Assembly: GCA_043228905.1 (NCBI GenBank)
Contig: JBHGNT010000022.1
Location: 1,612,001-1,676,000, forward strand
Reading direction: 5' to 3'
Length of the DNA: 64,000 bases
Source: Azolla caroliniana
Taxonomy: Eukaryota > Plantae > Polypodiophyta
Both the position numbers and the translations under genes were made by a program. How positions within the stretch are numbered: position 1 is the stretch's first letter; every line of letters starts with the position of its first letter. The notes under the pieces were generated by a model. That model was not told where the DNA came from and searched no databases. It was given only the letters and a program-made list of their open reading frames with translations. Positions 3,736-61,830 of this stretch are shown piece after piece.

Positions 3736-3749
3736 TTTCTGCAACAGTC

Positions 3750-3761
3750 GCTCTGATACCA
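3750..3761 (-). promoter_or_regulatory. PBS (initiator tRNA-Met type) of A1
   Basis: gctctgatacca = reverse complement of TGGTATCAGAGC, next to the LTR end. Confidence 0.9.
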
Positions 3762-3764
3762 GTT

Positions 3765-4127
3765 TGTAACGAATCGATGCTTCGATTAACCTTCTTCCCT
3801 CGGCCACAACCGAGCAATCGCGGATCAATGTAGCAGAAAATAGAAACCAAAAAAAAGAGAAATACTCGAGTACACAGTGATTAACGTGGAAAACCCTAGA
3901 TGGGAAAAACCACGGGAGTACAAGACTCCAACGACACTATACAAAGAGAAGTATACAATGACGAGCTCCAAGGCGACGACCTTGAGCTCGCTGTCCTCGC
4001 CACAGGCGGCGGAAATACACAGAGGCATCGTCCTCTTCCTCTCTCGCGCTCTATCTCTCTCTCTCTCTCTCACTCACGGCTGCTTACACTTCACTCCTCT
4101 TGAGTGGAAAAACAGAAAAATGAGTAG
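3765..4127 (-). repeat. A1 5' LTR, 3' part only
   Basis: Homologous to the LTR at 28434-29044; breaks off before the TATA region where it is fused to B1 gag. Confidence 0.85.
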
Positions 4128-7100: not shown

Positions 7101-8747
7101 ACGTCAAAATCGGACTCTTCCCTGTTCATCTGGAAAGGTCGACTCGGACCGGTTAGTATTTTACTATATGTTGATGACTTGGTCATCACCGGCGCCGACC
7201 TAGGTGAAATCGACCGCGTGAAGCTCCAGCTTGTGGCATCGTTCGACATGAAGGATCTGGGGGACCTTCATTACTTCCTCGGGATCGAAGTGATCCGTAC
7301 CCCCGAAGGCATATTGATGACTTGGTCATCACCGGCGCCGACCTAGGTGAAATCGACCGCGTGAAGCTCCAGCTTGTGGCATCGTTCGACATGAAGGATC
7401 TGGGGGACCTTCATTACTTCCTCGGGATCGAAGTGATCCGTACCCCCGAAGGCATATTGATCAGCCAACGTCATTACGTACTGAGTATGCTCTTCAAATT
7501 CGGGATGGCCGACTGTAAGTCTGTCTCGACTCCACTGGACAGAACCATTAAGCTTCGTCCCGATACAGGAAAGGTATGCGACCCGATGAGGTTCCGACAA
7601 ATTGTCGGAAGCCTCATATACTTGACCATCACCCGACCCGACCTTAGTTATCCGGTCGGAGTGATCAGTCAATTCATAGCGCGACCTACCGAGGAGCACC
7701 TCCAGTGTGCGCAATGCATACTTTGGTATGTCAACGGCACTAAGGACCGGGGACTGCTATATTGAACCGGTGCCGCCGCGTAGTTAGTCGGCTACACCGA
7801 TGCTGATTGGGCTGGCAACGCCGCCGATCGCCGATCCACGTCCGGATACGCTGTCTCCCTCGGGAGTGCCGCAATCGCGTGGAGCAGTAAGAAGCAGCCG
7901 ACAGTTGCACTGTCGAGCACCGAACCTGAGTACCGAGGAGCGGCTGTCGCGACATGCGAAGCCATATGGTTGAAATGGGTACTTAGGGACCTACAAGAGG
8001 AGGTGTCAGATCCGACGACGATCTACTACGAGAACCTCAGCAGCATCCAGCTCGCGAAAAACCCTGTTTTCCACGCATGGACCAAGCACATTGAGGTGCA
8101 CTACCATTTTGTCCGTGAGCATGTCCTTTCCGGTGAAGTCGAACTTCAGTACGTTCCGATGGATCGGCAGACTCCCGACATCTTCACCAAGCCTCTTGGT
8201 CTGGACAAGTTGCGGCAATTCTCAGGTGCGTTCGGATTGCGTCACGTCGACGTCCCGAACGACCAAGCAAGGCAGCAGGAAAGGAGTGGAGACTGCAACA
8301 CCGACTCGGTTGACTCGGTTGTCGAGTTCGACTTCGGATCGACTGAAGAAGCCGAGGGCGGACCCGCGGAAAAGTCCGGAAGCGGACAAAAGGGGAGCAG
8401 CCGAAGGAGAGAGCCGAAGCCAACCACGCATGGGGAAAATGACGCCATCGAGGGCGAGAAGACCGAAGACAAGTTGGAGACAGCCAACTCGGACGAGAGC
8501 AAAAACCGATCGGAGGTAGCCGAGTTGGTTCGGATGTTTGATTCAGATATGCTGAATCAACCGAGGCCCAAGCGGAAGAAAAGGCAGCAGGAGAAGCGTC
8601 AACACCGCAACATCAGAAGAGCTGATAAGGGCCACATGGGCAGACAAGCCGACCGGAAGTGGAGTGTGAGCGAGGCGTGAAGCCAGGAGGAACCGGAACT
8701 GTGAGCCCGAAGATCCCGAAGAGCCTCAAGTTGAGCTTGAGGGGGAG
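4124..8747 (+). pseudogene. B1 gag-pol pseudogene with C-terminal extension
   Basis: ORF fragments 4370-4732, 4781-4996, 5009-5476, 5579-6376, 6258-6803, 6849-7346, 7322-7765, 7970-8680 separated by stops and frameshifts. Confidence 0.9.
7171..7461 (+). repeat. 143-bp tandem duplication inside B1 RT
   Basis: 7171-7313 repeated at 7314-7456, with TTGAT microhomology at the junctions. Confidence 0.95.
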
Positions 8748-22435: not shown

Positions 22436-25400
22436 AGGGCCGGATTATTGCGCAAGGGCATAGAGATGGGAGGATGTTCATCCTTGATACCAATGTCGTC
22501 GGCACCGCTTTGTTCGCCAAAGGACAGAAGATTGAATCGGATATTGATCTCTGGCGCAAGCGGATCGACCACGTCAATTACCAAAGGCTTCAAGACTTGC
22601 AAACGAAACAAGTTTTTTTCGGTTTGCCAAAGTTCAGTGGCCGGAAGGTCCAAATATCTGAAGCCTGCCAACTCGGGAAGCAACACCGGCTTCCATTCCC
22701 CACCGAATGAAACCGTAGCTGTAACAAGCTCAACCTTATTCATTTGGATGTATGGGGACTCGCACATAACGTTAACGACTACAACCGGCACATATGGATC
22801 TACCTCATTGAATGGAAGAGCGAAGTCTTCGAGTGTTTCCGGAACCTGCAAAGTCTGGTTGAACGAGAAATGGAGAGGAAGATCAACTGCCTGCGGTCGG
22901 ATGGCGGAAAAGAATATTTTTCCGGCCAATTCAACAGTTATCTATAGCAAAAAGGAATTCGGAGAGAGTTCAGCTCCAAATACACACCGGAGCAAAACGG
23001 TGTGGCAAAGGCGATGCTAGAGCAAAAGAGCATGCCCAAATTCTACTAGGCTGAGGTGGTCCGGACGGCCATCTATATCCAAAACCGGATCAGTGAGAAA
23101 GTGTCCGGGCATGAGCTGTATTTCGGGCACTAGCCGAAATTGAGACACCTTCGGTATTCGGTAGCATTGCGTATGTGCATGTGCCGGATGAAAAGCGGAG
23201 GAAGTTGGATGCAAAGTCAAAGAGAAGTGTATCTTAGTCAGTTACTCGCATGAGCAAAAGGGGTATAAGTGTTACAACCCCCAGATGAAGCAGGTTCGAG
23301 TAAGCCGAGATGTTGAGTTCGATGAATCGGCATCATGGTACTCCTTACCGGCTCTGACTTCCGACCCCGACCCGATATTGGAGGATGAGGCTAGTGAGCT
23401 TGAACCGGTCCAATTAGAAGACAAAGGGTTCAAAACTCTAGATGAGAGTCCAGATTCGTTTCAGTTGAGCGGGTCAAACGAGCGACTGGGTCTGACAGAC
23501 CAGTCGGATGATGAACCGACGAGTAGTGGAGACTCTGTCGTGCTCTCCCCGCGCAAGAAACCGAGGAGACGGTTCACACACAAGGAGAAGGGGAAGAAGA
23601 AGATGACGGAACACGAGACTGACAATGGTGAGTCAGATCGAAGCGGATCCGACTCCGGTAAGGAAGAAGTCGGATCTTTGGGAACGAAGACCGAACCGGC
23701 CAAGAAGGGCACCAAACTGGGTAACGCTCAGTTACACCGGTCTTCCCGCCAGAAGAACCCTGTGAAGGAGTACGGGTACAATGAGTACATGGCGAATCAC
23801 TATGCGCACATGACCAAGGTGGCAGAAGTGCATGAGCCGGAGAGCTACGCAAAATCGGCAAAGGACGCAAATTGGCGTGCCACTATTGAAGAAGAAATGT
23901 GGGCACTTGATGCCAACAACACATGGGACCTAGTTGACCCTCCCCAACACTGTAAACCAATTGGATGTAAGTGGGTGTACAAGGTAAAGTACAATGCCGA
24001 CGGTTCGGTTAACCGGTACAAGGCCTGGTTAGTGGCAAAGGGATACGTGCAGACCCACGGAATAGGCTACGACGAGACCTTCGATCCGGTAGAGAAAATG
24101 ACGACGGTTCATGTCGTGCTGGCTATTGTTGCGGCAAGGGGGTGGCATTTTCACCAGATGGACGTGAAGAATGCATTTCTTCAAGGAGATCTTGAAGAAG
24201 AGGTCTTTATGACCCAACCCCCCGGTTTCCAATTGTAGATGAACAAGTCGGCGGTATGCCGTCTGAAGAAGTCACTTTATGGCCTGAAGCAAGCCCCCCG
24301 AGTATGGAATGCGAAGATCACGCACCGGTTGCGTAAGATGGGGTTTGTGGCCTCCAATTCTGACTCTTCGTTGTTCATCCGGCAAGGTCTGGATGGTCCG
24401 ATTTGCATCTTGCTGTATGTTGATGATATAGTCATCACCGGACCCGAACTCGATGAAATCAGCCGAGTCAAGTCCCAATTGTCGGACGCATTTGAGATGG
24501 AGGACCTGGGGGACCTTCACTATTTCCTTGGGATCGAGGTAATCCGAACCCCCGACAACATATTTCCCTCATAGAGACACTAAGTGTTGAAGCCAATATA
24601 TGGAGAAGCCAACCGTGGAGCAGCTTTTGTCCGCGCATCAAATTTTGCGATATGTGAGCGGCACGAAGGACCGGGGACTGTTATACTGACATGGTATAAC
24701 CAAAGAGCTAGTCGGCTACACCGATGCCGACTAGGCCGACGATGCATCGGATCGCCTATCCACCTCCGTCTATATGTTTTCCCTTGGTAGCGCGATTGTT
24801 GCGTGGAGCAGCAAAAAGCAGCCAACAGTGACCCTTTCGAGCACTGAGGATGAATACCGGGGTGCTACTGTTGCCACCTGTGAAGCCATTTGGATTCGGT
24901 GACTTTTGCAAGACCTGCGGATCGAGGTGTCGACCCCGATCTTGATCTACTGCGACAACATAAGCAGCATGCAGCTCGACAAGAACCCCATATTCCATGC
25001 TTGCAAAAAGCCCATAGAAGTGCCCTACCACTTCGTGCATTAGCGTGTCCTGAGCGGTGAAGTCGAACTTCAGTATGTCCATACGGATCGGCAAGTTGCC
25101 GAAATCTTCACCAAACTGCTTGGATCAATAAAGTTGCAACACTTCATCGAAATGCATGGTGTTCAACATCTCGACGTGCCACACTTTAGGGGGAGAATGG
25201 GGAAAGACACCGGAACGGGCAAAGGCAAAGAAACTGCCGATTGCGCCGGTGAGGGAAGAATGACCAAAGGGAGAGACAAGAAGAAGAAATGAGCTGAGTC
25301 GACAAAGGAAGTTGACACATCCGAACAAGTCGGAACAAGCGGCAGCAGCGGCAGAGTCAAGAAGGACAGAGCCAATCGAAAGAAGAAGACCAAGAGCCGG

Positions 25401-26189
25401 ACATGGTCTGATATGGTGAAGGGCCTGGAACCGGAAGACGAATCAGGAGCGACCAATTTGGACAAGAGCTAGAACAAATCGGAGACAGCCGATTCGGTTC
25501 AACAGATGAATTCGGACGAACCGGTTCAACTGAAGGCCAAGCGGATGAGAAGGCAACGGAAGTCAACACCAACACAAAAGAATCGACGGGTCGACAAGCG
25601 CCGAATTCACAGCAGTGAGGGAGCTGAATTGGGCCTATTGAACAAACAAGTCGATCAAGGAGGTCAAGGTGCGCAGAATCAGAAGGGTCGCGGAAATTAG
25701 GACCGGACCGGATCAGGAGCACGACCAAGGCGGAGTGACGCCAGAAGGAGCTAGGTGGAAGGACCGGCTGCCATGGAGACTGACACTACGATTTGACCTC
25801 AACTTGAGTTTGAGGGGGAGTGTTGAGCGACAAGCTCATCCGGATCCGGATCAACTGAATAAGCCTGAGCCGGATCGGCATCCGGAAGGATGAGTCGGAT
25901 CGGTGAGCCGGTGAGCAAGCGAGCTGGTGAGTTGGGGAGCCGGTTAGCCATATCAAGTAGTAATTGAAAGCCTAGTAGCAACCTAGACTACTAGGTAGTT
26001 AATGTCTCGTAGTTAGTGTTAGACGCTCGTATGAGCATTGAAGTACACCGTACTTCTGTCAGTCCTCTTAGGACTTGTATAAATAGTGTTGTTGAGCACA
26101 TTGTATGTACAGAGAATTTACAAAGTTGTTGGTAATAGATTTAAGTTGTTATGGTCTTTCTCTGTCTCTCCTGCATACCTTCTGTGTGT

Positions 26190-26224
<35 letters not shown>

Positions 26225-26274
26225 GCTATCCGTCGAAGCCGGTTGTCTAAAGCTTCTGCACCTTCGTTTTTACA
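22436..26274 (+). mobile_element. Copia element B2, 5'-truncated, degenerate
   Basis: Integrase, RT and RNase H fragments homologous to B1; PPT; 3' LTR. Confidence 0.92.
25821..26274 (+). repeat. B2 3' LTR
   Basis: tgttgagcga...tttttaca after gagggggag; similar to the B3 LTR. Confidence 0.9.
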
Positions 26275-27330
26275 GTGCCCTTCAATGATGGCTAGTACGA
26301 GACAACTCCTGGGGTCGATTGCGAAGGGAGGGTGGTAAGTGAGACGGAAACATCAAGTGTGGGGGCTGGTAATTCCACCTCGGCCCACTTCCTCCTTGTG
26401 TCACCATAGGCGTGTTCCACTATTTCTACCAAAAGCACAAATGGGCAGTAACCACGTCATTGGAGTGGCTGCAAACCTCGTCCAATTGCCCTCGTAGGCA
26501 AGCTGATAATCGCAAACTATATGTCCATGATCACTTCCTCTGGGGGCCACACCAGATCCTGAAAGACCTCTAGGCAATGCGCTTTCCATACATACCACGG
26601 GGTGAAGCCTACGATCAACATCCAAATGTCCGGGAACCTAGGGGATGTGTACTGGAAGCCTCTCTCAAATCGAATCTTGGCGATTTTGCCTCTCATGCAT
26701 ACGTAGCACCAACTATCTGTATTGAAGGTGTCCGTCCACCTATCCATGGAGTGATCAAGCCATGCCGCAACACTCCACGATGTTGTTCCTTCCACTTCAC
26801 ATGCCGCAAGGAGGCGAGTAACTCTATCTGATACCTTTTGAGATTGAGGGAAATCCCATAGACAATGCCTTAGAGTCTCAATAGGTGAATGGCAAAGTGG
26901 GTAACCTAAAGGGCCACCACGTTTACCTAGCCATTCGCCAACGGGAACCACATTATGATCGATTTGCCACCAAAAAAACTTTATCTTTTCTGGCATGTGG
27001 AGATGCTAGAGACCCTTCCAAAAGGTAATGAGTACCTCATCATGGATGCCCAATGTACACCAGCCATTGCGTAAGCGGCTGTCTAGCTGTAGTTGAATAG
27101 TCTGGCCCAGTTTAGTGTTTTACTCAAAGAAATGGTGAAATCTGCCATCATGTTTCCACCTGAAATCCCCTGGGTCCCATTCTAGTTCGAAGAGGGGACG
27201 ACAACCATATACTCATAACTTCCAATGGGTTTCCATCTTAGCAACATCCGGATCTGTCTTTCAGATGTTACCAACTGCGCCACCACGTAGATTGGGTGCC
27301 AAGAGCCCCTACTCTGACTCTCCCCAAAAA
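26275..27330 (-). mobile_element. LINE (L1-like) ORF2 3' remnant with zf-RVT-like region
   Basis: PEKIKFFWWQI...PLCHSPIETLRHCLWD...WYVWKA in ORF 26517-26996. Confidence 0.75.
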
Positions 27331-27381
27331 TTGTATCTCTTCCCGATCCGCTCACGCCCTTCAGCAACTTAACCCGTCCAG

Positions 27382-27514
27382 GCTCTCCGGGTACATTCGT
27401 CATCCGGTACCGAAACCGGGGTCTTCGTCATCCGGATCCGAAACCGAAACCGGGCTTGTCGGCATTCATCTCCAATATCCGACCATCCCATGAGAAGGGA
27501 CCGTAATCCCAACA
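27382..27514 (-). repeat. Family A LTR start fragment
   Basis: Reverse complement of 28434-28566 with one mismatch. Confidence 0.93.
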
Positions 27515-28423
27515 CGAACCTTCTCAATGAAGGACCTGGGTCCGGCGAGACAAATACTAGGGATGCACATCATCCGGGACCGGAGCAAGAAGCAGTTGTG
27601 GCTGTCACAGGAGAAGTACGTGACGAAGGTGCTTCACCGGTTCAACATGTCGGAAGCAAGACCGGTCGGATCGACCCTCCCGACAAACTGCAAGCTGTCC
27701 AGCAAGCAAAGTCCCAAGACAAAGGCTGAAAAGGAGGATATGATGAAAGTGCCGTATGCCTCAGCCGTCGGGAGCTTGATGTACGCCATGGTGTGTACGA
27801 GACCGGACATCGGATATGCAGTCGGAGTGGTGAGCCGGTACATGAGCAATCCCGGCAAAGAGCATTGGAACGCGGCCAAGTGGATACTCCGATACCTGAA
27901 GGGCACGGCAAACGTGTGCCTCCGATTCGGCTCCGGAAAGCCCGAACTCGACGGCTTTACCGATTCGGATATGTCGGCTGATGCAGATACCAGCCGGTCC
28001 ACATCAGGGTATGTGATGACGTATGCAGGGGGAGCTGTTTCATGGCAGTCGAGGCTGCAGAAGACGGTTGCGTTGTCAACTACGGAGGCGGAGTACATGG
28101 CGGCTGTTGAAGCCGGCAAGGAAGTAATATGGATGAAGGACTTCATTAGAGAGCTCGGTATCCGGCAGGAGGAGTACCGACTCTACTGTGACAGTCAGAG
28201 TGCAATCCACCTTGCGAAGAACGCGGCCTATCACTCCCGGACGAAGCACATCCAGCGAAGATATCACTGGATCCGGGAAAGGATAGAAGACAAGGAGTTC
28301 GTGCTGACAAAGATCCACACGGACGAGAACGGGTCGGATATGCTGACCAAGGTCCTCACACCCGACAAGCTGGAAGCATGCCGGAAGAGGATCGGTTTGG
28401 AAAGACATCCCATGCCGAAGTGA
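27515..28423 (+). pseudogene. Inverted 3' part of family A pol (RT end plus RNase H)
   Basis: RTFSMKDLG...SDMLTK continues the A2 frame that breaks at ALHR (29045). Confidence 0.92.
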
Positions 28424-28433
28424 AGGGGGAGTT

Positions 28434-29044
28434 TGTTGGGATTACGGTCCCTTCTCATGGGATGGTCGGATATCGGAGATGAATGCCGACAAGCCCGGTT
28501 TCGGTTTCGGATCCGGATGACGAAGACCCCGGTTTCGGTACCGGATGACGAATGTACCCGGAGAGCGATCCGGATGCAGGGACATATCCGTGAATATGTT
28601 CGCTATGGGCCCCTGAGGCTACAGTTGTAAATAGCCCAAAGTCATATAAGTATAAATATGACTTAGGGCAAACAGTGTTGTTGTTGCTTATCATTTTTCT
28701 GTTTTTCCACTCAAGAGGAGTGAAGAGGGAGCAGCCGTGAGACAGAGTGAGAGATAGAGCGCGAGAGAAGAAGAGGACGACGCCTCTGTGTATTTCCGCC
28801 GCCTGTGGCGAGGACAGCGAGCTCAAGGTCGTCGCCTTGGAGCTCGTCATTGTATACTTCTCTTGTATAGTGTTGTTTGGAGTATTGTACTCCCGTGGTT
28901 TTTCCCATCTAGGGTTTTCCACGTTAATCCCTGTGTACTCGTGTGTTTCTCTCTTTTTTGGTTTCTATTTTCTGCTGCATTGATCCGCGATTACTCGGTT
29001 GTGGCCGAAAGGAAGAAGGTGAATCGAAGCATCGATTCCCAACA
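28434..29044 (+). repeat. Complete family A 3' LTR (611 bp)
   Basis: tgttggga...tcccaaca after PPT gaagggggag. Confidence 0.93.
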
Positions 29045-32000
29045 GTTCGGTGAAGCGCTTTCTTCAGCGTCCGTATCTTGACCTGATCCCGTCCGACGAT
29101 CAACATGTCGTCCACGTACAGGAGGAGTATTAGAGAGTCTCCTCCTTCGAACTTCTTCACAAACACGCAGTGATCAGACTGCGTTTTGTGGTACCCTTCG
29201 TCGGTCATGAAGGAGTCGAACTTCCGGTACCATTGCCGGGGAGCCTGCTTCAGTCCGTAAAGGCTCTTCTTCAACTGGCATACCAGGTGCTCCTTCCCTT
29301 TCTTCTCGAATCCTTCCGGTTGCTGCATGTAGATCTCTTCTTCGAGGTCACCGTGAAGGAATGCCGTCTTCACGTCCATCTGTTCTACCTCGAGGTCCAT
29401 AATTGCCGTTATGCTCAGCACCGTCCGGATGGAGGTCATCTTCACTACCGGGGCAAATATCTCGTCGAAGTCGACGCCCTTCTTCTGCTGGAACCCCTTC
29501 ACCACGATCCTGGCTTTGTATCTCGGGGGGTTTCCGGCATCTCCCGGTTTCAGCTTGAACACCCACTTGTTTCGAAGTGCCCGCTTTCCTTTCGGCAACT
29601 CCACAAGTTCATATGTGTGGTTCTCATGCAGGGAATCCATCTCCTCCTGCATGGCACTTAACCACCTGCGGCTATGGGTGTCAAACTTTGCTTCTTCAAA
29701 ACTCTCCGGTTCCCCCTCGTCGGTCAGCAGCACGTGCTCAGGTTCCGGAAATCTCCGGGGGGCCCTTCTCTCTCTTAGAGGATATCTCCGTTCCGGAGCT
29801 TCGGTAACCGGCTCCTCCGTTTCCTCTTCATCCGAATCCATTTCGGGATCGGGGCCGGTTCCGGTATCAGTTTCATCTTCCTCGGCCGGTTCTGTTTCTT
29901 CACCGTCTTCGGCCGGATCCTCGAGTCCTAACCGGTCCCTTGCCGGTCGGGACTGCTCCTCGTAGAGTTGATTCTCACCGGTCGACTTTGAGCTCTTCAT
30001 CTTCTTCTCCGACTCCCAGTCGGCGAGCGTCTTGTCCTCCATGAAGATGATATCTCGACTCCTGAATATCTTCTTGTCGACCGGGTCCCATACTCGGTAG
30101 CCGAACTCGTCGTCGCCGTAACCGAGGAATATGCATGGCCGGGTCTTTGGATCTAACTTTCCTCTCCGGTCCTTTGCCACATGCACGTATGCGAGACACC
30201 CGAACACCTTCAGATGCCGGTAGGACACTTCCTTACTGGTCCACACTTTCTGCGGCGTGTCTCCGTCCAAAGGTACTGAGGGTGATCTATTTATCACATA
30301 CGTCGCCGTCGACATTGCCTCAGCCCAAAATCCCTTGGGTAATTTCGCATGTGCTAGCATACTCCGGACTCTCTCCATTATGGTCCGGTTCATCCTCTCG
30401 GCCAGCCCGTTCAGTTCCGGCGTCTTCGGCACAGTAAACTCGAGCCGGATTCCCTTCGAGCGACAGTACTCCTCGAACTGCCCCCGGTATTCCCCTCCGT
30501 TATCCGCTCGTATCGCTTTCAGCTTCTTGCCGGATTCCCTTTCCACTCTCGCGTGGAGTTCTTTGAAGACAGACAATACTTGGTCCTTTGTCTTCAACGG
30601 TGCCGTCCACAGCTTCCGACTATGGTGATCTATGAATGTTACGAAGTACTGGGCTCCGCCATGTGACTTCGTTTCTACCTGACACACATCAGTGTGTACC
30701 AACTCCAATGGTACACTACGTCTCATCGGTGGTCTTGAACGGAAGGAGGTTCGGTTCTGCTTACCGGCCAGACAGTCGGTACACTTCCCCAAGTGTACGT
30801 GCTTTACCGGTATCAGGTTGTCTTCGGCAAGTCTCTTCATCCCCTTCTCGCTCATGTGGCACAGTCTCTTGTGCCACAGCTCACCGGCAGTGTCGGCTGC
30901 CACGTTCAACTCTTCCAGACACAACCAGGCATTCATAAGGTACAGTGTGTTGACTTTCCGGGCCCGAGCCACTATCAGGCTCCCCTTGCTGAACTTCATT
31001 ACGCCGTTCCGGATGCTACCTGTGTAGCCTTCATCGTCTAGCCTCCCGGCCGAAATCAGGTTCAATCGAACCTCCGGAACGTGTCTGACATCCTTCAGCA
31101 GCATTTTGCATCCGGTCGAGGTTGTCACCCACACGTCTCCTATGCCGGCAATCCGGCACGTACCTTCATTTCCCATCCGAACACAGCCATGCTCACCGGC
31201 TGTGTAGGATGAGAAGTATCTTCTCTCCGGGGTTAGGTGGAACGACGCTCCAGAATCGACCACCCAGGTCGTCTCATCGCCGGCAATGTTTAGTTCACCT
31301 TCTTCGGTGATGAGCATGATTTCTTCCTCACTTGCCGCGAGTGCCGTCGTTCCTTTCCGGTCCTGCCCTTGCCGATCCGGACCTCTCCGGTCCGTGGCTC
31401 CCCGGTATGCACCGTTTCTCTCCGGTGACTTCTTCGAATCGGTGTCGTCGGCTCCGTTGTCCTTTCAGTAATGCCGACAATTCTTCTGGAAGTGCCCCGG
31501 CTTCCCACAGTGGAAGCATGTGGGTCTTCCTCTTGACTGCGACCGGGTCCCCGACTTCTCCCGTCTTTGTGGACTCCGGTTCCATTGTCTTCCCCGTTCC
31601 GATTCGGTAAGCAGCGCCTTCGAGTCGGAGGCCGGTTCTTTATCTCTCCGACGCGCTTCTTCGTTCAAAATACTCGTCTTTACCGTTTGTAGGGACAAGT
31701 TATCTTCGGTGCAGGAGGTGCTGAGAGTCACCACCAAGTTCTCCCAGCTGTCCGGCAATGTACACATCAGAATGATGGCTTGCATTGCATCCTCCAACGG
31801 GAACTTGATCGCCGCAAGCTGGTTCACGAATCCCACGAACGTGCTTACGTGTTCCACCATACTCTCGCCGTCCCGGTACTTGAGGTTCACTATCTTTCTC
31901 ATCAGGGAGGTCCGGTTCAACGCATTCTTCCTCTCGTAGAGGCCCGACAGCTTCCGCCACATCTCATATGCGTTGGTGTCGTTCGCCATGTGTTGTAGAA

Positions 32001-32214
32001 CACTCACGTCGACGTATTGCCGAATGGTTGCAACGGCTTTCCAGTTCAGAAGCCTCCATTCCGACTCAAGTACCCCCTTCGGTATTTCCGACCTGTCAAT
32101 CGGTTCGTACAGATCCCGAACAATCAGAAGATCCTCCATCTTGATCTTCCAGTCGGCGTAATTCTGCGCATTCAGCACCATCATCCCCGGCTGCCCGCTG
32201 CTGCCGCCTTCCAT
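29045..32214 (-). pseudogene. A2 gag-pol with a premature stop at 31465-31467 and an inversion break
   Basis: ORFs 31465-32325 and 28924-31317 are in the same frame; CGA in A1 is TGA here. Confidence 0.9.
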
Positions 32215-32244
32215 TTTCTGTGTTACCGTCGCTCTGATACCACT

Positions 32245-32953
32245 TGTTGAACACAGTGCTCGGCCACAACCGAGGAACAGGATCGATTCACAGAAAACGG
32301 GAAATACAAGAATGCACGAAAACAATAGAGAGAAGGGTACACTGGATGTTTTACGTGGAAAGCCCTAAATGGGAAAAACCACGGGAGTGCAAGACTCCAA
32401 CTATCACTATACGCGGGGAATGTACAATGGCGAGCTGCAAGGCGACGACCTTGAGCTCGCTGTCCTCGCCACAGGCGGCGGTATTACACAGAGGCGTCGA
32501 CCTCTTCCTTCCTCTTTCTCTCTCACTCTCTCTCGGCTGCTCTCACTTCGCTTCCTCTCAGTGGAAAAACAGAAAATGAGCAACAACTTCAACAACAACC
32601 AAAACTGTTTGCCCTAAGTCATATTTATACACATATGACTTTCGGGCTATTTACAAAATATAGCCTCAAGGGCCCTTGGCAAACATATTCACAAATATGT
32701 CCCCGCATCCGGATCTCTCTCCGGGTACATACGTCATCCGGCTCCGTAACCGGGGTCTTCAGCATCCGGCTCCGTAACCGGGGTCTTCAGCATCCGGCTC
32801 CGTAACCGGGGTCTTCATCATCCGGATCCGCAGCCGGGTACTCTTCATCCGGCTTCATGCCGGGTGCTCTTCATCATACGGTTCCGTAGCAGCCTCCGGG
32901 CCTGCCGTCATTCATCTCCGGACATCCCATCCGGAGGGACCGAAATCCCAACA
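32245..32953 (-). repeat. A2 5' LTR (different LTR subtype) with an internal 28-bp tandem repeat at 32735-32818
   Basis: TG...CA termini; three copies of catccggctccgtaaccggggtcttcag followed by degenerate copies. Confidence 0.9.
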
Positions 32954-33625
32954 AGGTCTAGTCTCATGGATGGTGATCTGAGAAGGTAAGACTTGCCAAG
33001 ATAGCGAAGGAGCCCCCCAGCTCTTCGAGGGACGAGCTGATGTATATGCAGTCTAGCCGTGCAAGACTACCACCCCTAGCACTCACGACAGCTCGGGAGA
33101 AGTGTAGAGAATGTGACCATCTCCTATGGGAAGAGCCCCATGTATCCTTCACCCCAATTTTTCCAATTAGGAAAGCCCATGAGTCCAACTGTGCACCATG
33201 AAGCGGTCTTCGGGTCCCCCCTTTCCTATCTCCCAGATGCTCAGTCATGTTAAAATCTCCAGCCATTAACCACGCCTCTGCATCAAGCAATGTTGTCACT
33301 AACATCCTCAAAAAGATTGCTCTCTCGGGGGAAGAGTTAGGGTCATAAATGTTCAAAAGTACATATAAGGCTCTACCCACCACCAACGTGCCATGTGATG
33401 TTACTTCGTAACAGGCTTGATCGCTAATCGAGATGCAGACCCCACCTCTTCGGTGGAGGTCACCCTATGCTGTCGACCACCACGTGGTCCATCCACCCGA
33501 CAAGGGGTTTAGTAGGCTCTGAGTTCTCTCTTGAGAGAGGTGGTGTTCCTGAAAAAGCAATATGTCAATATTGTCCCCTATATTAAGGGGATTCAACTCC
33601 TCCCGAAGTCTTTGAGAAGAAATAG
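32954..33625 (-). mobile_element. LINE ORF2 AP-endonuclease remnant
   Basis: DILLFQEH, LNIYDPN, GDFN, ARLDCIY, SDHHP motifs. Confidence 0.85.
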
Positions 33626-34354
33626 TGTGGAATATCGCTCGGCCACAACCTAGTCTTGAATCACAGAAATGGGAATGAACAAGAGAGTACACAGAAATGA
33701 CACAGGATGTTTACATGGAAAACCCTAATAGGGAAAAACCACATGAGCCCAAGGACTCCAACTATCACTATATGAGAGGAAATACAAAGTGGAGGCACAA
33801 AGGCAACGACCTCGTGCTCGCGATCATCGCCAGACAACGGTTACAACAGAGAGTGCTCGTAGCTTCTCTCTCTCTCTCTCTGTCGCTCTTTGTACTGTAG
33901 TTATGCACATACAACAATATGACAATAACAATACAACACTCTATACAAGTGATTACCCTAAGTCATATTTATACTTATATGAACTTAGGGCTATTTACAA
34001 ATATAGCCTCAATGGGCTTACTTGAAAGATATTTACATACATGTCTCTCTTCCGGTTCTCACCAGCTCTCTTCCGGTTCTCACCAGGTCCTCTTCATTCT
34101 TCACTGGATCCCATCTGGAGGGACCGATTTCCCAACAATCTCCCCCTTCACTCCGGCATGGGATGTCTCGTCAGCCCGATTCGCTTTTGGTAGGCATCCA
34201 ACTTGTCAATCATTAACACCTTGGTCAACAAGAACTCTTGATCTTCTACACTCTCCCAGATCTAGTGGTACCTCCGCTAGATATGTTTCGTCCGGGAATG
34301 GTAGGCCGCATTCTTTGCAAGGTGGATGACACTTTGACTGTTGCAGTAGAGCCG

Positions 34355-34684
34355 CGTTGAGCGGCAGCTCAACCGGATCCAGATCGACATCTGGAAGGAT
34401 GAGCCGGATCGGTGAGCTAGTGAGCTGGGGAGCCCATTAGCCGGATCAAGCAGTAACCGGAACCCTAGTAGCAGCCTAGACTACTAAGTAGTTAATATCT
34501 CATAGTTAGTGTTAGACGCTCGTGTGAGCATTGAAGTACATTGTACTTCTGTCAGTCCTCTTAGGACTTGTATAAATAGTGTTGTTGAGCACGTTGTATG
34601 TACAGAGAATTTTACAGAGTTTTTTGATAATAGATTTAAGTGGTTCTGCTCTTTCTCTATCTCTACTGTGTACCTTCTATGTGT

Positions 34685-34726
<42 letters not shown>

Positions 34727-37573
34727 CTATCCGGCTAAGCCGGTTGTCTAATGCTTCAGCACCTTCGTTTTTACATGGTATCAGAGCGCCACGGTTGAGA
34801 ACCTCTGCAACCGACATCAACATCTAGAGACAAACCCTAAGACCCGGTAAGAACAGAAAGAGAAGTGATGGACAGAGGAATGGCTAGCTCGCTCCCGGTA
34901 GAGAAGCTCAATAGATCCAACTACGCATCTTGGTCATACAATATGCACCAGTACCTGCTTGGGCATGGTTGCTGGAGCTATGTCGACGGAGCTAACGACA
35001 CAACACCTGATGCGGCACACAAGGACTTCCCAGTGTGGGAACAAGCGGCAAGCAGAGTGATGTACTGCTTTGCGTCCAGTGTCGGAGACCAGCTGCTCAG
35101 CCATGTCCGCGATGCCAAGATGCCAAAAGAAGCTTGGGGAAACCTGAAGAAGGTTTTCACGGCAAGCACTACGGCTCGGAAGCAGCAACTCCGACATGAG
35201 TTGAGCAATGTCCAACAGAAGGACATGTCGGTAACCGATTACACGGCCTGAATCAAAGAGATCCTTGACTCACTTGCCTCTATCAACGTCACTATAGAGG
35301 AAGATGAGATGGTGCAGATCTGTCTTGGGGGCCTAGTGTTTAAGTTCAGAGCATTCCGAACTACAGTATGTACAAGGGAGAATATGTCATCATTTTTCGA
35401 CTTACAGTCGATGCTCCTTGTAGAGGAGAACTAGAAAAGCCGGTAAAGGGCCAGCCTTGGTGATGAATCAACGAGGCTAACTCGATGAAGAAGACCACTT
35501 CCAAATCAGAGGAACTGTAGTATGTTGATTCCGTTGCGTCGAATCACATGACGAGCCACAAAGAGTAGTTCTCCTTCTTGGGGAAACCGGAACAACCGGG
35601 AGTCATCAAAACCGTAGACGACACTCCTCACCCAATCGTGCATGTCGGAGAAGTCCCTTTGAGCCACGTCGGATAGAGGGGGAAGCTGATGAATGTATTA
35701 CACACTAGAGCAAAACGGTGTGGCCGAAAGGAAGAATTGGTCGATTGTCGACACCGCAAGGGCAATGTTAGAGGAGAAGAGCATGCCCCATTTCTACTGG
35801 GCCTAGGCGGTCCGAACGGCCGTCTATATCCAAAACCGGATCGGTGACAAGGTGTCCACGCATGACCTATATTTCGGGCGCAAGCCGAATTTGAGACACC
35901 TTCGAATATTCAGTAGCATTGCATATGTGCATGTGCTGGATGAGAAGCAGAAGAAGTTGGATGCAAAGTCGGAGAAATGCATCATGGTCGGTTACTCGCA
36001 TGAGCAAAAGGGGTATAAGTGTTATAACCCCTAGACGAAGTAGGTCCGAGTTAGCCGGGATGTTGAGTTTGATGAGACGGCATCATGGTATGCCTTACCG
36101 GCTCCGACTTCCGACCCCGACCTGATACCGAAGGATGAGGCTAGTGAGCCTGAACCGGTCCAATTAGAAGACGAAGGGTTCGAGACTCTAGATGTGAGTC
36201 CAGAATCGTTTCAGTTGAGCAGGCCGAACGAGCGACTAGGTCAGACAGACCAGTCGGAAGATGAACTGGTGAATAGTGGAGACTCTACCATGGTCCCCCC
36301 ATGCAAGGAATAGAGGAGACGATTCACGCCCAAGGAAAAGGGAAAGAGGAAGATGCTGGAGCATGAGACCGGCAATGGTGAGTCGGATCGGAGCAAATCC
36401 GACTCCGAAAAAGAAGAAGGTGGATCTTCAGCAACGAAGACCAAACGAGCCAAGAAGGGCCTCAAAGCGGTACGGGTACAATGAGTACATGGCGCATCAC
36501 TATGCTTACATGACCAAGGTCACAAAAGTGCGTGAGCCAGAGAGCTACGCAGAATTCGCATGGCGCTATGGAGGAAGAAATGCGGGCTCTTGATGCCAAC
36601 GACACATGGGACCTAGTTGACCCTCCCCGACACTGTAAACCGATCGGATGTAAGTGGGTGTACAAGGTAAACTACAATGCCGACGGTTCGGTTAACCAGT
36701 ACAAGAGGATATGTGCAGACCCACAGAATTGACTACGACGAGACCTTCGCTCTGATAGCGAAGATGATGACGGTTCATGTGGTGCTGGTGGTTGTTACGG
36801 TAAGGGGGTGGCATCTTCACCAGATGGACGTGAAGAATGCATTTCTTCCAGGCGATCTTGAAGAAGAGGTCTTTATGACCCAACCCCCCGATTTCCAGTC
36901 AGAGATGAACAAGTCGGTGGTATGCCGGCTGAAGAAGTCACTTTATGGCCTAAAGCAAGCCCCCCGAGCTTGGAATGCGAAAATCACACACCGGTTGCGT
37001 AAGATGGGATTTGAGGCCTCCAAGTCCGACTCTTCGTTGTTCATCCGGCAAGGTCCGGACGGTCCGATTTGCATCTTACCGACCGATCTCCACACACCTG
37101 GACCGGAACTAGAAGCTCCGTCTCGACTCTAGACCAGCCTGCGATGAGAAGCGGTTCTGACAAATCATCAGAAGCCTTATATATTTGACAATCACCCAAC
37201 CCGACATCAATTATCTGGTTGGCGTGATCAACCAATATATGGAGAAGCCGACTGTGGAGCACCTTCTGTGCGCGCATCAAATTTTGCGATATGTGCGCGT
37301 CACAAAGGGCCGAGGACTGTTATACCAGCATGGTATAACCGAAGAGCTAGTCAGCTACACCGATGCCGATTGGGGCGGCGATGCATCAGATCATCGATCC
37401 ACCTCCGGCTATATGTTTTCCCTTGGTACCACGTCTATTGCGTGGAGTAGCAAAAAGCAGCCAATAGTGGCCCTTTCGAGCACTGAGGCTGAATACCGGG
37501 GCTCTACCGTTGACACCTGTCAAGCCAATTGGTTTTGGCGAATGCTGCAAGACCTGCGGATCGAGGTGCCGAC
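34355..37573 (+). mobile_element. Copia B3: 5' LTR 34355-34775, PBS 34776-34787, internally deleted gag-pol, 3'-truncated
   Basis: ttttaca followed by TGGTATCAGAGC; gag ORF 34865-35251; RT and RNase H fragments. Confidence 0.9.
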
Positions 37574-38016
37574 TGGCTCACCACTCCGACTGCATATCCG
37601 ATACCTGGTTGGGTTCATATCATCGCGTACATCAAGCTCCCGACAACAAAGGCATATGGTATCTTCATCATATCCGTCTTCTCTGCCTTTGTCCTCGGGC
37701 TTTATTTACCAGATATCTTGTAGTTTGCCAGAAGTATCGATACGACCGGTTTTGCCTCCGACATGTTGGACTGTTGAAGCACCTTTGTCACATACTTCTC
37801 CTGTGACAACCACAACAACTTATTCGACCGTTCCCGGATGATCCGCTTTTGGTAGGCATCCAACTTGTCAATCATTAACACCTTGGTCAACAAGAACTCT
37901 TGATCTTCTACACTCTCCCAGATCTAGTGGTACCTCCGCTAGATATGTTTCGTCCGGGAATGGTAGGCCGCATTCTTTGCAAGGTGGATGACACTTTGAC
38001 TGTTGCAGTAGAGCCG

Positions 38017-38346
38017 CGTTGAGCGGCAGCTCAACCGGATCCAGATCGACATCTGGAAGGATGAGCCGGATCGGTGAGCTAGTGAGCTGGGGAGCCCATT
38101 AGCCGGATCAAGCAGTAACCGGAACCCTAGTAGCAGCCTAGACTACTAAGTAGTTAATATCTCATAGTTAGTGTTAGACGCTCGTGTGAGCATTGAAGTA
38201 CATTGTACTTCTGTCAGTCCTCTTAGGACTTGTATAAATAGTGTTGTTGAGCACGTTGTATGTACAGAGAATTTTACAGAGTTTTTTGATAATAGATTTA
38301 AGTGGTTCTGCTCTTTCTCTATCTCTACTGTGTACCTTCTATGTGT

Positions 38347-38388
<42 letters not shown>

Positions 38389-41235
38389 CTATCCGGCTAA
38401 GCCGGTTGTCTAATGCTTCAGCACCTTCGTTTTTACATGGTATCAGAGCGCCACGGTTGAGAACCTCTGCAACCGACATCAACATCTAGAGACAAACCCT
38501 AAGACCCGGTAAGAACAGAAAGAGAAGTGATGGACAGAGGAATGGCTAGCTCGCTCCCGGTAGAGAAGCTCAATAGATCCAACTACGCATCTTGGTCATA
38601 CAATATGCACCAGTACCTGCTTGGGCATGGTTGCTGGAGCTATGTCGACGGAGCTAACGACACAACACCTGATGCGGCACACAAGGACTTCCCAGTGTGG
38701 GAACAAGCGGCAAGCAGAGTGATGTACTGCTTTGCGTCCAGTGTCGGAGACCAGCTGCTCAGCCATGTCCGCGATGCCAAGATGCCAAAAGAAGCTTGGG
38801 GAAACCTGAAGAAGGTTTTCACGGCAAGCACTACGGCTCGGAAGCAGCAACTCCGACATGAGTTGAGCAATGTCCAACAGAAGGACATGTCGGTAACCGA
38901 TTACACGGCCTGAATCAAAGAGATCCTTGACTCACTTGCCTCTATCAACGTCACTATAGAGGAAGATGAGATGGTGCAGATCTGTCTTGGGGGCCTAGTG
39001 TTTAAGTTCAGAGCATTCCGAACTACAGTATGTACAAGGGAGAATATGTCATCATTTTTCGACTTACAGTCGATGCTCCTTGTAGAGGAGAACTAGAAAA
39101 GCCGGTAAAGGGCCAGCCTTGGTGATGAATCAACGAGGCTAACTCGATGAAGAAGACCACTTCCAAATCAGAGGAACTGTAGTATGTTGATTCCGTTGCG
39201 TCGAATCACATGACGAGCCACAAAGAGTAGTTCTCCTTCTTGGGGAAACCGGAACAACCGGGAGTCATCAAAACCGTAGACGACACTCCTCACCCAATCG
39301 TGCATGTCGGAGAAGTCCCTTTGAGCCACGTCGGATAGAGGGGGAAGCTGATGAATGTATTACACACTAGAGCAAAACGGTGTGGCCGAAAGGAAGAATT
39401 GGTCGATTGTCGACACCGCAAGGGCAATGTTAGAGGAGAAGAGCATGCCCCATTTCTACTGGGCCTAGGCGGTCCGAACGGCCGTCTATATCCAAAACCG
39501 GATCGGTGACAAGGTGTCCACGCATGACCTATATTTCGGGCGCAAGCCGAATTTGAGACACCTTCGAATATTCAGTAGCATTGCATATGTGCATGTGCTG
39601 GATGAGAAGCAGAAGAAGTTGGATGCAAAGTCGGAGAAATGCATCATGGTCGGTTACTCGCATGAGCAAAAGGGGTATAAGTGTTATAACCCCTAGACGA
39701 AGTAGGTCCGAGTTAGCCGGGATGTTGAGTTTGATGAGACGGCATCATGGTATGCCTTACCGGCTCCGACTTCCGACCCCGACCTGATACCGAAGGATGA
39801 GGCTAGTGAGCCTGAACCGGTCCAATTAGAAGACGAAGGGTTCGAGACTCTAGATGTGAGTCCAGAATCGTTTCGGTTGAGCAGGCCGAACGAGCGACTA
39901 GGTCAGACAGACCAGTCGGAAGATGAACTGGTGAATAGTGGAGACTCTACCATGGTCCCCCCATGCAAGGAATAGAGGAGACGATTCACGCCCAAGGAAA
40001 AGGGAAAGAGGAAGATGCTGGAGCATGAGACCGGCAATGGTGAGTCGGATCGGAGCAAATCCGACTCCGAAAAAGAAGAAGGTGGATCTTCAGCAACGAA
40101 GACCAAACGAGCCAAGAAGGGCCTCAAAGCGGTACGGGTACAATGAGTACATGGCGCATCACTATGCTTACATGACCAAGGTCACAAAAGTGCGTGAGCC
40201 AGAGAGCTACGCAGAATTCGCATGGCGCTATGGAGGAAGAAATGCGGGCTCTTGATGCCAACGACACATGGGACCTAGTTGACCCTCCCCGACACTGTAA
40301 ACCGATCGGATGTAAGTGGGTGTACAAGGTAAACTACAATGCCGACGGTTCGGTTAACCAGTACAAGAGGATATGTGCAGACCCACAGAATTGACTACGA
40401 CGAGACCTTCGCTCTGATAGCGAAGATGATGACGGTTCATGTGGTGCTGGTGGTTGTTACGGTAAGGGGGTGGCATCTTCACCAGATGGACGTGAAGAAT
40501 GCATTTCTTCCAGGCGATCTTGAAGAAGAGGTCTTTATGACCCAACCCCCCGATTTCCAGTCAGAGATGAACAAGTCGGTGGTATGCCGGCTGAAGAAGT
40601 CACTTTATGGCCTAAAGCAAGCCCCCCGAGCTTGGAATGCGAAAATCACACACCGGTTGCGTAAGATGGGATTTGAGGCCTCCAAGTCCGACTCTTCGTT
40701 GTTCATCCGGCAAGGTCCGGACGGTCCGATTTGCATCTTACCGACCGATCTCCACACACCTGGACCGGAACTAGAAGCTCCGTCTCGACTCTAGACCAGC
40801 CTGCGATGAGAAGCAGTTCTGACAAATCATCAGAAGCCTTATATATTTGACAATCACCCAACCCGACATCAATTATCTGGTTGGCGTGATCAACCAATAT
40901 ATGGAGAAGCCGACTGTGGAGCACCTTCTGTGCGCGCATCAAATTTTGCGATATGTGCGCGTCACGAAGGGCCGAGGACTGTTATACCAGCATGGTATAA
41001 CCGAAGAGCTAGTCAGCTACACCGATGCCGATTGGGGCGGCGATGCATCAGATCATCGATCCACCTCCGGCTATATGTTTTCCCTTGGTACCACGTCTAT
41101 TGCGTGGAGTAGCAAAAAGCAGCCAATAGTGGCCCTTTCGAGCACTGAGGCTGAATACCGGGGCTCTACCGTTGACACCTGTCAAGCCAATTGGTTTTGG
41201 CGAATGCTGCAAGACCTGCGGATCGAGGTGCCGAC
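38017..41235 (+). mobile_element. Duplicate of B3 (LTR 38017-38437, PBS 38438-38449)
   Basis: Second unit of the tandem duplication. Confidence 0.9.
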
Positions 41236-43010
41236 TGGCTCACCACTCCGACTGCATATCCGATACCTGGTTGGGTTCATATCATCGCGTACATCAAGCT
41301 CCCGACAACAAAGGCATATGGTATCTTCATCATATCCGTCTTCTCTGCCTTTGTCCTCGGGCTTTATTTACCAGATATCTTGTAGTTTGCCAGAAGTATC
41401 GATACGACCGGTTTTGCCTCCGACATGTTGGACTGTTGAAGCACCTTTGTCACATACTTCTCCTGTGACAACCACAACAACTTATTCGACCGTTCCCGGA
41501 TGATGTGCATTCCCAATATTTGTCTTTCCGGCCCAAAGTCTTTCATTGAGAAGGTATGGTTCAGAGCCTTCTTTAGCATCTGTATCTTACCTTGGTCTCG
41601 TCTGACGATCAACATATCATCCACATACAGGAGGAGTATCAGGAAATCTCCTTCGTCAAATTTATTCACAAACACGCAGTGATCGGCTTGCGTCTTGTGG
41701 TACCCTTGGTCGGTCATGAAGGAGTCGAACTTCCAGTACCATTGCCGGGGAGCTTGCTTCAGTCTGTATAGGCTCTTCTTCAGCCAGCACACCAGGTGCT
41801 CCTTCCCTTTCTTCTCAAATCCTTCTGGTTGATGCATGTAGATGTCTTCTTCGAGGTCGCCATGTAGGAATGTCGTCTTGACATCTAGTTGCTCAATCTC
41901 GAGGTCCATGCTTGCAACTATGCCCAATATCGTCTGAATGGATGTCATGTTTAACACCAAGGCAAAGATCTCATTGAAGTCCACTCCTTTCTTCTACTGG
42001 AAACCCTTCACCACGATTCGGGCCTTATACATGGGTGGATTTCCGGCATCTCCCGGTTTCAACTTGTACACCCACTTGTTCCGGAGTGCTCTCTTCCCTT
42101 TCGGCAACTCCATCAGTTCATATGTGTGGTTCTCATGCAAGGAATCCATCTTGTCCTGCATGGCACTCAACCACTTGCGGCTGTGGGTGTCTTTCTCTGC
42201 TTCTTCAAAGCTTTCCGGCTCCCCCTCATTGGTTAGCAACACATGCTCTGCATCCGGAAATCTCTGTGGGGCTCTTCTCTCTTGAAGAGGATATCTCCAT
42301 CCTTGGTTTCTGACTATCGGTTCCTCCGTTTGTTCCTCATCCTCATCCGATTCGGGATCTTGTCCAATTCCGGTGTCTTCTTCTTCTTCTTCAATCAGTT
42401 CGGTTTCTTGTCCATATCCGTCTGGTTCGTCGAGTGTCATCCGGTTACTGGCTAGCGTCTGGTTTTCAACCGGGTAAGTCCTAGTGTCCTCAAGCCGGTT
42501 TTCATTGAATGATCCGGAGTTCATCACCTTCTTTTCCAACTCCTAGTCAGCAATGGTCCTGTCTTCCATGAAGACTATGTCCCGAGTCCGAAACACCTTC
42601 TTGTCGACCAAATACCACACCCAGTAACCAAATTCACCATCGTCGTATCCAAGGAATATGCATGGCCGGGACTTCGGATCCAACTTTGCTCTCTTGTCTT
42701 TCGCCACATCCACATATGCGAGACACCCAAACACCTCCAAATGCCGGTAAGATACATCTTTACCGGTCCATACTTTCTGATGTGAGTCTCCTCCCAAGGG
42801 TACTTAGGGTGATCTGTTTATCACATAGGTCGTCGTCATCAGCGCCTCAGCCCAAAACGTCTTGGGTAACTTGGCATGTACGAGCATGCTCCAGACTCTC
42901 TCCATTATGGTCTGGTTCATCCTTTCGGCCAGCCCATTTAGTTCCGGCGTCTTTGGCACAATAAACTTGAGTCGGATTCCCTTCGACCAGCAGTACTCCT
43001 CGAACTTCCC

Positions 43011-43446
43011 CCGGTATTCTCCTCCATTATTTGCTCGAACCGCCTTCAGCTTCCGACCGGTTTCTCTTTCCACTCTCGCATGGAGCTCCTTGAAGACAGA
43101 TAGCACCTAATCCTTCGTCTTCAATGGTGAGACCCACAGCTTCCGGCTATGGTCATCTATGAACGTCACGATGTACTGCGATCCGGCATGTGACTTTGTG
43201 TCCACTTGACACAGATCAGTATGCACCACCGGTATTCTCCTCCGTTATCTGCTCGAATAGCCTTCAACTTCCAGATGGTTTCTCTTTCCACTCTCGCGTG
43301 GAGCTCCTTGAAGACGGATAACAGTTGATCCTTCGTCTTCAATGGTGAGACCCACAGCTTCCGGCTATGTTCATCTATGAACGTCATGAAGTACTGCGAT
43401 CCGGCATGTGACTTTGTGTCCACTTGACACACATTAGTATGCACCA
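43011..43446. repeat. Diverged 218-bp tandem duplication in the A3 integrase
   Basis: ccggtattctcctcc...gtatgcacca at 43011 and 43229. Confidence 0.9.
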
Positions 43447-61600: not shown

Positions 61601-61830
61601 AGCAGGCGGCGGAATATATAGAGAGAGAGTGTGTGTTGTTGTGCTTCTATTGATGGCTAAAATTGGAGATAGAGAGATAAAAATAGAGACAATTATTGCT
61701 CGCTCTTTGTTTTGGCTTGGCTTTGGTTCGATCTCTGTGTCTCTTTGTTTCTTCTGTTTTTCTGTCTTTTGCTGCTTCTTTCTTCTTCTCTCACAATTCC
61801 TTCATATAAACTCATAGAGACACATATACA

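What the first reader, a model, noticed from the sequence alone, without database searches (positions are those of the whole stretch)
27382..29049. Copia with its 3' end flipped between an inverted 5-bp TSD: possible autointegration footprint
Seen: A2 pol breaks at ...CAC-CGAAC (minus, 29049-29045) and joins precisely to the U5 end of an oppositely oriented LTR. The continuation starts CGAAC-CTTC on the plus strand at 27515, joined precisely to the U3 start of a near-identical LTR. So an integrase-type 5-bp duplication is present, but inverted. Inference, two models: (1) an autointegration inversion circle recombined into a resident relative; (2) a sister element inserted antisense, then inversion between homologous pol regions. 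Either model needs a later deletion on the left.
Basis: partly seen in the sequence, partly recalled or inferred. Interest (0 to 1): 0.7.

Follow-up and report, generated by a model that had tools for sequence, protein, structure and literature searches.

The report
Flipped junction of nested Copia pair
Pieces of two different copies of one plant jumping-gene family meet at the same internal 5-base site in opposite orientations; most likely one copy inserted backwards into the other and faulty DNA repair between the facing copies later flipped one junction and deleted nearby DNA, so it probably only imitates the footprint of an element inserting into itself.

Summary
Observation confirmed: precise LTR ends at 27514 and 29044 each abut one copy of CGAAC, inverted, and pol resumes exactly in register. 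Against 68 natural copies from this genome, the 5' piece is non-B down to 29056 and the flipped piece is subfamily B from 27550. The switch lies in a 41-bp invariant span around the junction, and 0 of 68 copies carry both haplotypes. The halves therefore come from two elements, which fails the single-molecule test for an autointegration product. About 2.46 kb of the host LINE is also missing, with a 3-bp microhomology at 27381/27382. Best reading (0.68): B inserted antisense into resident A2 (9 of 70 sampled family insertions abut related Copia DNA). A homology-driven switch between the inverted pol halves at their homology boundary, plus a microhomology join, then flipped about 140-170 bp and removed about 7.8 kb. 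Rivals: captured autointegration circle 0.10, misassembly 0.10 (contig-only runs inconclusive), two insertions at one site 0.08. The scan noted inversions between facing LTR copies on other DNA, not this structure.

The parts
26274..27381 (-). 3' part of host LINE (approximate left end), cut at 27381
   Evidence: zf-RVT hit; 90-92% to intact LINE copies L058-L060 and to paralogous block L020
27381..27385 (.). Junction J1, LINE to LTR fragment; CTC microhomology (27383-27385) after one non-matching base
   Evidence: comparison with 4 LINE copies
27382..27514 (-). First 133 bp (U3 start) of a subfamily-B LTR
   Evidence: 132/133 identical to 28434-28566
27515..27519 (+). CGAAC, one copy of the 5-bp duplication (junction J2), joined to the U3 start
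   Evidence: motif unique in assembly
27515..28423 (+). Subfamily-B pol 3' part (end of RT to the pol stop codon)
   Evidence: RVT_2 191-238; 100% to L004 over 27515-28000; 16 of 16 diagnostic sites B
28422..28433 (+). Polypurine tract
28434..29044 (+). Complete subfamily-B 3' LTR, 611 bp, TG...CA
   Evidence: 95-99% to B LTRs genome-wide
29045..29049 (-). Second, inverted copy of CGAAC (junction J3), joined to the U5 end
   Evidence: motif unique in assembly
29045..32246 (-). Resident element A2: PBS, gag, protease, integrase and 5' RT; non-B mosaic; one private premature stop at 31465-31467
   Evidence: Pfam; best matches non-B copies, e.g. L042; stop absent from 67 of 68 copies, 1 gapped
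32247..32953 (-). A2 5' LTR, subfamily A, 707 bp
   Evidence: 98-99% to A copies L021/L022; about 83% local and 67-69% global identity to B LTRs
32954..33613 (-). Upstream (endonuclease) part of a LINE of the same family and orientation; begins with AGGTC, the probable TSD of A2, whose left copy is lost

Best explanation
The locus joins pieces of two different Copia copies at the same internal 5-bp site in opposite orientations; likely a subfamily-B copy first inserted antisense into the RT gene of resident copy A2, and a later, inferred repair event between the facing pol halves flipped the left junction and deleted about 7.8 kb. Step 1 (junction shown, event inferred): integrase joins B's U5 end to A2 at CGAAC (J3 survives intact) and B's U3 end to the second CGAAC plus A2's pol 3' half. 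B's and A2's pol 3' halves are now about 95%-identical inverted repeats a few kb apart, and their homology ends exactly at CGAAC. Step 2 (inferred): a broken or stalled strand carrying B's pol 3' half pairs with A2's pol 3' half and loses its unpaired tail at the homology boundary. It copies through CGAAC into 133 bp of B's own 5' LTR, then rejoins the LINE at a 3-bp microhomology (one-sided invasion or BIR, then end joining). Lost would be about 3.7 kb of B, 1.6 kb of A2 and 2.46 kb of LINE. A crossover inversion within 30 bp of the site followed by a separate deletion gives the same product. I put the single event at about 0.45 and the two-step route at about 0.23. The product is a dead relic.
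For: Subfamily switch confined to 41 bp around the duplication; 0 of 68 copies share both haplotypes, 24 share only the 5'-side one, 28 only the 3'-side one, 16 neither. The flipped piece is B at 16 of 16 diagnostic sites; the last 200 bp of the 5' piece are B at 0 of 7. The 5' LTR is A-type, the other two LTR pieces B-type. Nested insertion is common here: 9 of 70 other sampled 5' LTR junctions abut related Copia DNA, 3 of them antisense. The LINE gap of 2457-2464 bp and the CTC microhomology show a deletion reaching into host DNA. The left LTR fragment differs from the 3' LTR by one C-to-T in a CGG context, as expected for the two LTRs of one young copy; only 16 of 140 sampled LTR starts are that close. 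The two-step scheme (homology switch at inverted repeats, then NHEJ or microhomology join) is described for human inverted repeats (PMC11293582 Introduction); one-sided invasion is the accepted route of templated repair in plants (PMC9299229 passage).
Against: No A-type base survives in the flipped piece, so the use of A2's pol 3' half as template is not directly visible; a captured inversion circle resolved at the same boundary yields the identical sequence. The pre-event allele is not in the assembly. The 4 sampled nested insertions into hosts at least 85% alike are all sense, and the 3 antisense ones are in hosts only 72-83% alike. 37 of the 68 copies were chosen for likeness to one side of the junction, which inflates the one-sided counts, though not the absence of two-sided copies. 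Flap removal at the homology boundary is recalled knowledge, not tested.
Confidence: 0.68

Rival explanations
1. An autointegration inversion circle of a B copy (or of an A/B recombinant cDNA) was captured into resident A2. A break in A2's 3' half would pair with the circle's pol 5' part, be trimmed at CGAAC, copy 1.66 kb of the circle and rejoin the LINE, losing about 4.1 kb.
For: The geometry (U5 end and U3 end on either side of an inverted 5-bp duplication, pol in register) is that of an inversion circle. Such circles are abundant in particles of one Arabidopsis Copia element, with sites throughout the element (PMC7197481 passages). It needs the smaller deletion.
Against: Sequence 5' of the site is non-B to within 6 bp, so a simple crossover is excluded. 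What remains needs a rare extrachromosomal circle to outcompete many chromosomal copies as template, or an RT template switch coinciding with the autointegration site (41 bp of about 4 kb). No exact internal PPT copy lies near the site; the nearest purine run is about 90 bp upstream.
Confidence: 0.1
2. Two independent nested insertions hit the same homologous site: B1 antisense into A2, then a second B copy antisense into B1, followed by one deletion of about 13 kb. No recombination is needed.
For: Predicts the switch exactly at the junctions. Same-site double hits exist: copies L032 and L066 sit at the same RT position in two hosts 82% alike.
Against: No other LTR end ending CAACA abuts this site in either orientation in the assembly (1 match each). 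The second element must be one of the few near-identical B copies (16 of 140 sampled LTR starts). It needs the largest deletion.
Confidence: 0.08
3. Assembly artefact: a chimeric read or a collapse of the inverted pol halves created J1 and J2.
For: No listed contig piece of 4 public runs bridges J2 (104 pieces were not shown, and no joint was listed). The region is repeat-dense and holds a 99.9% tandem duplication at 34178-41504.
Against: Those runs are short contigs that drop rare variants and may be other accessions. J2 and J3 are base-perfect integrase-type joints, J1 has microhomology, and the two U3 copies differ by a deamination-type change, unlike a fold-back read.
Confidence: 0.1

Closest known systems
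Autointegration inversion circles of LTR retroelements (Ty1; Arabidopsis SISYPHUS/ATCOPIA52, PMC7197481)
   Same: Both LTR ends joined at one internal site with an inverted segment between them; here with an inverted 5-bp duplication and pol in register.
   Different: Those are extrachromosomal and come from one molecule. Here the DNA is chromosomal, the two sides of the site come from different subfamilies, and the LTR upstream of gag is a different LTR.
Nested same-family LTR insertions ('autoinsertions', PMC6911290)
   Same: A copy inserted into an older relative with a 5-bp TSD; common in this genome.
   Different: An ordinary nest keeps a direct TSD and a whole inner element; here one junction is flipped and most of both elements' left side is gone.
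Inverted-repeat template-switch rearrangements (DUP-TRP/INV-DUP model, PMC11293582) and plant one-sided invasion (passage in PMC9299229)
   Same: One junction by homology inside an inverted repeat pair, the second by microhomology or end joining.
   Different: The outcome is deletion-inversion-deletion on a kb scale rather than amplification; the repeats are two retrotransposon pol halves about 95% alike; the switch sits at the homology boundary.

Membership tests
Ty1/Copia LTR retrotransposon | gag, protease, integrase, RT order | tested here: met
   Pfam Retrotran_gag_2, Pol_BBD, gag_pre-integrs, rve, RVT_2 in that order
Ty1/Copia LTR retrotransposon | TG...CA LTRs, PBS, PPT, 5-bp TSD | tested here: met
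   5-bp direct TSDs (exact or one mismatch) around the 16 B copies
Autointegration inversion circle | U5 end and U3 end joined to the two sides of one internal site, inverted, with 5-bp duplication | tested here: met
Autointegration inversion circle | Both sides of the site come from the same cDNA molecule | tested here: not met
   haplotype switch within 41 bp; 0 of 68 copies carry both haplotypes
Autointegration inversion circle | LTR upstream of gag identical to the inverted LTR | tested here: not met
   32247-32953 is A-type, about 83% local identity to 28434-29044
Autointegration inversion circle | Site near a central polypurine tract or flap (Ty1; not needed in SISYPHUS) | tested here: inconclusive
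   no exact internal PPT copy; purine run about 90 bp upstream
Autointegration inversion circle | Exists as circular extrachromosomal DNA | not testable with these tools
   needs circle or particle sequencing
Inverted-repeat template switch plus end joining | One junction inside homologous sequence of an inverted pair | tested here: met
   switch in an invariant 41-bp span shared by A and B
Inverted-repeat template switch plus end joining | Second junction with microhomology and loss of flanking DNA | tested here: met
   CTC at 27383-27385; 2457-2464 bp of LINE missing
Inverted-repeat template switch plus end joining | Pre-existing inverted pair in cis (ancestral allele) | not testable with these tools
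   no second copy of the junctions in the assembly; no relatives' genomes held

The most novel reading that the evidence does not exclude
A chromosomal fossil of a retrotransposon suicide circle: an autointegration inversion circle served as repair template and was written into a resident relative, so these dead-end circles can re-enter the germ line and reshape the genome.
Probability: 0.1. Interest if true: 0.6.

Novelty: new member of a known kind. Interest (0 to 1): 0.28.

Why it matters
As read here it is a single dead locus, but a clean one. It shows that an inverted TSD with perfect LTR ends is not diagnostic of autointegration once the two halves are typed by subfamily. It also illustrates how antisense same-family nests may decay and delete host DNA in plant genomes. 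If the circle-capture reading were true, it would be direct evidence that autointegration circles can be inherited; I saw no such case in the listings of paper searches.

Tried and rejected
Neighbour A1 (window 1-4132) as the lost continuation: rejected; it has its own 3' LTR in L020, 98.9% identical to its 5' LTR and only 92-94% to the B LTR. Natural recombinant subfamily explaining both halves: none among 68 copies. B-like tract at about 31400-30850 in the 5' piece as a model-1 crossover: rejected; non-B sequence follows for 1.8 kb up to the junction. Insertion hot spot at this site: no further hits; a degenerate motif for the control site returned only the two copies already seen. Second copy or haplotig of the junctions: none. 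Read support: 4 of 20 listed runs laid, all contigs; no listed piece bridges J2 and the tables were cut, so no verdict; J1, J3 and J4 were not examined singly. The Ty1 autointegration paper (Garfinkel 2006) was not held and is known here only through its citation in PMC7197481. No earlier scan notes near this place.

Full report
Setting. The window lies on contig C22 of a 523-Mb assembly in a dense nest of retrotransposons, with a plant-type gene hit near 60-62 kb. The family in question is a Ty1/Copia element of about 5.3-5.5 kb with many young full-length copies.

Observation. On the plus strand: LINE to 27381; reverse-complemented first 133 bp of an LTR (27382-27514); CGAAC and the 3' part of pol (27515-28423); polypurine tract; a complete LTR (28434-29044); GTTCG and, on the minus strand, the 5' part of pol, gag, PBS and a 5' LTR (29045-32953); LINE again from 32954. 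The two pol pieces overlap by exactly 5 nt in natural copies, and the RVT_2 profile breaks at 190/191. Both LTR ends are natural termini. Each junction motif is unique in the assembly.

Subfamily test. I fetched 80 stretches of the genome and used 68 element copies for site-by-site comparison: 16 found by the middle LTR (B; one of these as a neighbour of a hit), 15 by the right LTR or adjacent to the window (A), 17 by pol just 5' of the junction and 20 by pol just 3' of it. The other 12 stretches were flanks, LINE copies, or partial, solo or nested copies and were left out of the site table. The flipped piece is B throughout: 100% to L004 over 27515-28000, 16 of 16 diagnostic sites, LTR 98-99% to the closest B copies. 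The 5' piece has an A-type LTR (98% to L021/L022) and is a non-B mosaic with a B-like tract near 31400-30850. From 30846 to the junction its best matches are non-B copies at 98.5-100% per 200-bp window, and 0 of 7 diagnostic sites in the last 200 bp are B. The last non-B alleles are at 29059 and 29056, the first B alleles at 27550, 27585 and 27586. Of 68 copies, 24 share only the former, 28 only the latter, 16 neither and none both. The switch is confined to 6 + 5 + 30 = 41 bp.

Left side. Both flanks are the same LINE family in the same orientation; 3 of 3 intact copies have 2457-2464 bp between the positions matching 27381 and 32954. A paralogous block just left of the window shows the LINE running on past 27381. 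The LINE/LTR joint has CTC microhomology after one unmatched base. The missing pieces are not elsewhere nearby: A1 has its own LTR pair.

Priors from this genome. Of 72 5'-LTR junctions sampled, two are this locus. Of the other 70, 11 flanks resemble the family's own sequence and 9 abut it directly (6 sense, 3 antisense); the 4 hosts at least 85% alike are all sense. Nesting into relatives is thus ordinary here, in line with PMC6911290 (passages read). One pair of copies sits at the same RT position in two related hosts, so same-site double hits occur, but the site in question has no other hit.

Mechanism. An antisense insertion of B into A2 at CGAAC makes J3 as seen, and a J2 in the opposite orientation. 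It also turns the two pol 3' halves into inverted repeats whose homology ends exactly at CGAAC. A strand carrying B's pol 3' half that pairs with A2's half and is trimmed at the boundary (trimming by a flap nuclease is recalled knowledge) would copy CGAAC and the start of B's 5' LTR. Rejoining the LINE by microhomology after 133 bp gives the observed sequence in one event, losing about 7.8 kb. This matches the two-step scheme for inverted repeats in PMC11293582 (abstract and Introduction read) and plant one-sided invasion (PMC9299229, one passage). A crossover within 30 bp of the site plus a later deletion is equivalent, but a random crossover would land there only about 3-4% of the time (30-35 of 919 bp). 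Shown: the junctions, the two-element origin, the LINE loss. Inferred: the order of events and the repair route.

Rivals. An autointegration circle has the same geometry, and such circles are documented in Arabidopsis particles (PMC7197481, passages read). But the simple crossover version predicts B sequence 5' of the site and is excluded. A boundary-resolved capture of a circle cannot be told apart by sequence, but needs a rare template (0.10). Two insertions at the same site plus a 13-kb deletion: 0.08. Misassembly: 0.10; the four runs laid are contigs only, none of the listed pieces bridges J2, and that is no verdict.

Novelty. Paper searches (listings only, apart from the four papers named) showed no chromosomal inversion-circle fossil and no description of this exact flipped-nest architecture; no supplements were consulted. 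Earlier scan notes on other genomes describe inversions between facing LTR copies (unchecked). The locus is best filed as a new example of a known kind, TE-mediated rearrangement between inverted repeats, with the useful twist that it imitates an autointegration footprint. Interest 0.28.

Noticed in passing
window 34178-37842 and 37840-41504: 3.66-kb tandem duplication, 99.9% identical (4 mismatches); a very recent duplication or an assembly duplication.
   Followed up: no
L032 (C15:16541635) and L066 (C14:1662363): Two independent family copies inserted at exactly the same RT position of two related Copia hosts, with a third antisense 7 bp away (L036): a hint of target-site preference; only these two match the motif genome-wide.
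   Followed up: partly
window 24591-27385 vs L020 2096-4880: Old paralogous block (89.6%) about 32 kb to the left, holding the same Copia remnant and LINE insertion; the LINE there continues past the window's breakpoint.
   Followed up: partly
window 29045-32246 and copies L023, L024, L044, L047-L049, L051, L052: The family is heavily mosaic, with many A/B switches inside pol, consistent with frequent recombination between subfamilies.
   Followed up: partly
window 3762-4133: A1's 5' LTR has lost its U3 part at 4133, where another Copia fragment begins; its 3' LTR in L020 is complete.
   Followed up: no
L016 1675-7210; L018/L019: A B copy nested sense in a relative and truncated about 100 bp past the same RT site; a relative nested sense inside another B copy's RT.
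   Followed up: no
window 7168-7318 / 7311-7461; 43008-43446: Short tandem duplications (period about 143 bp and 218 bp) inside other Copia remnants.
   Followed up: no
window 60164-61801 (-): Open frame with a strong PF14476 (petal formation-expressed) hit, the only non-transposon hit among the 15 frames scanned.
   Followed up: no
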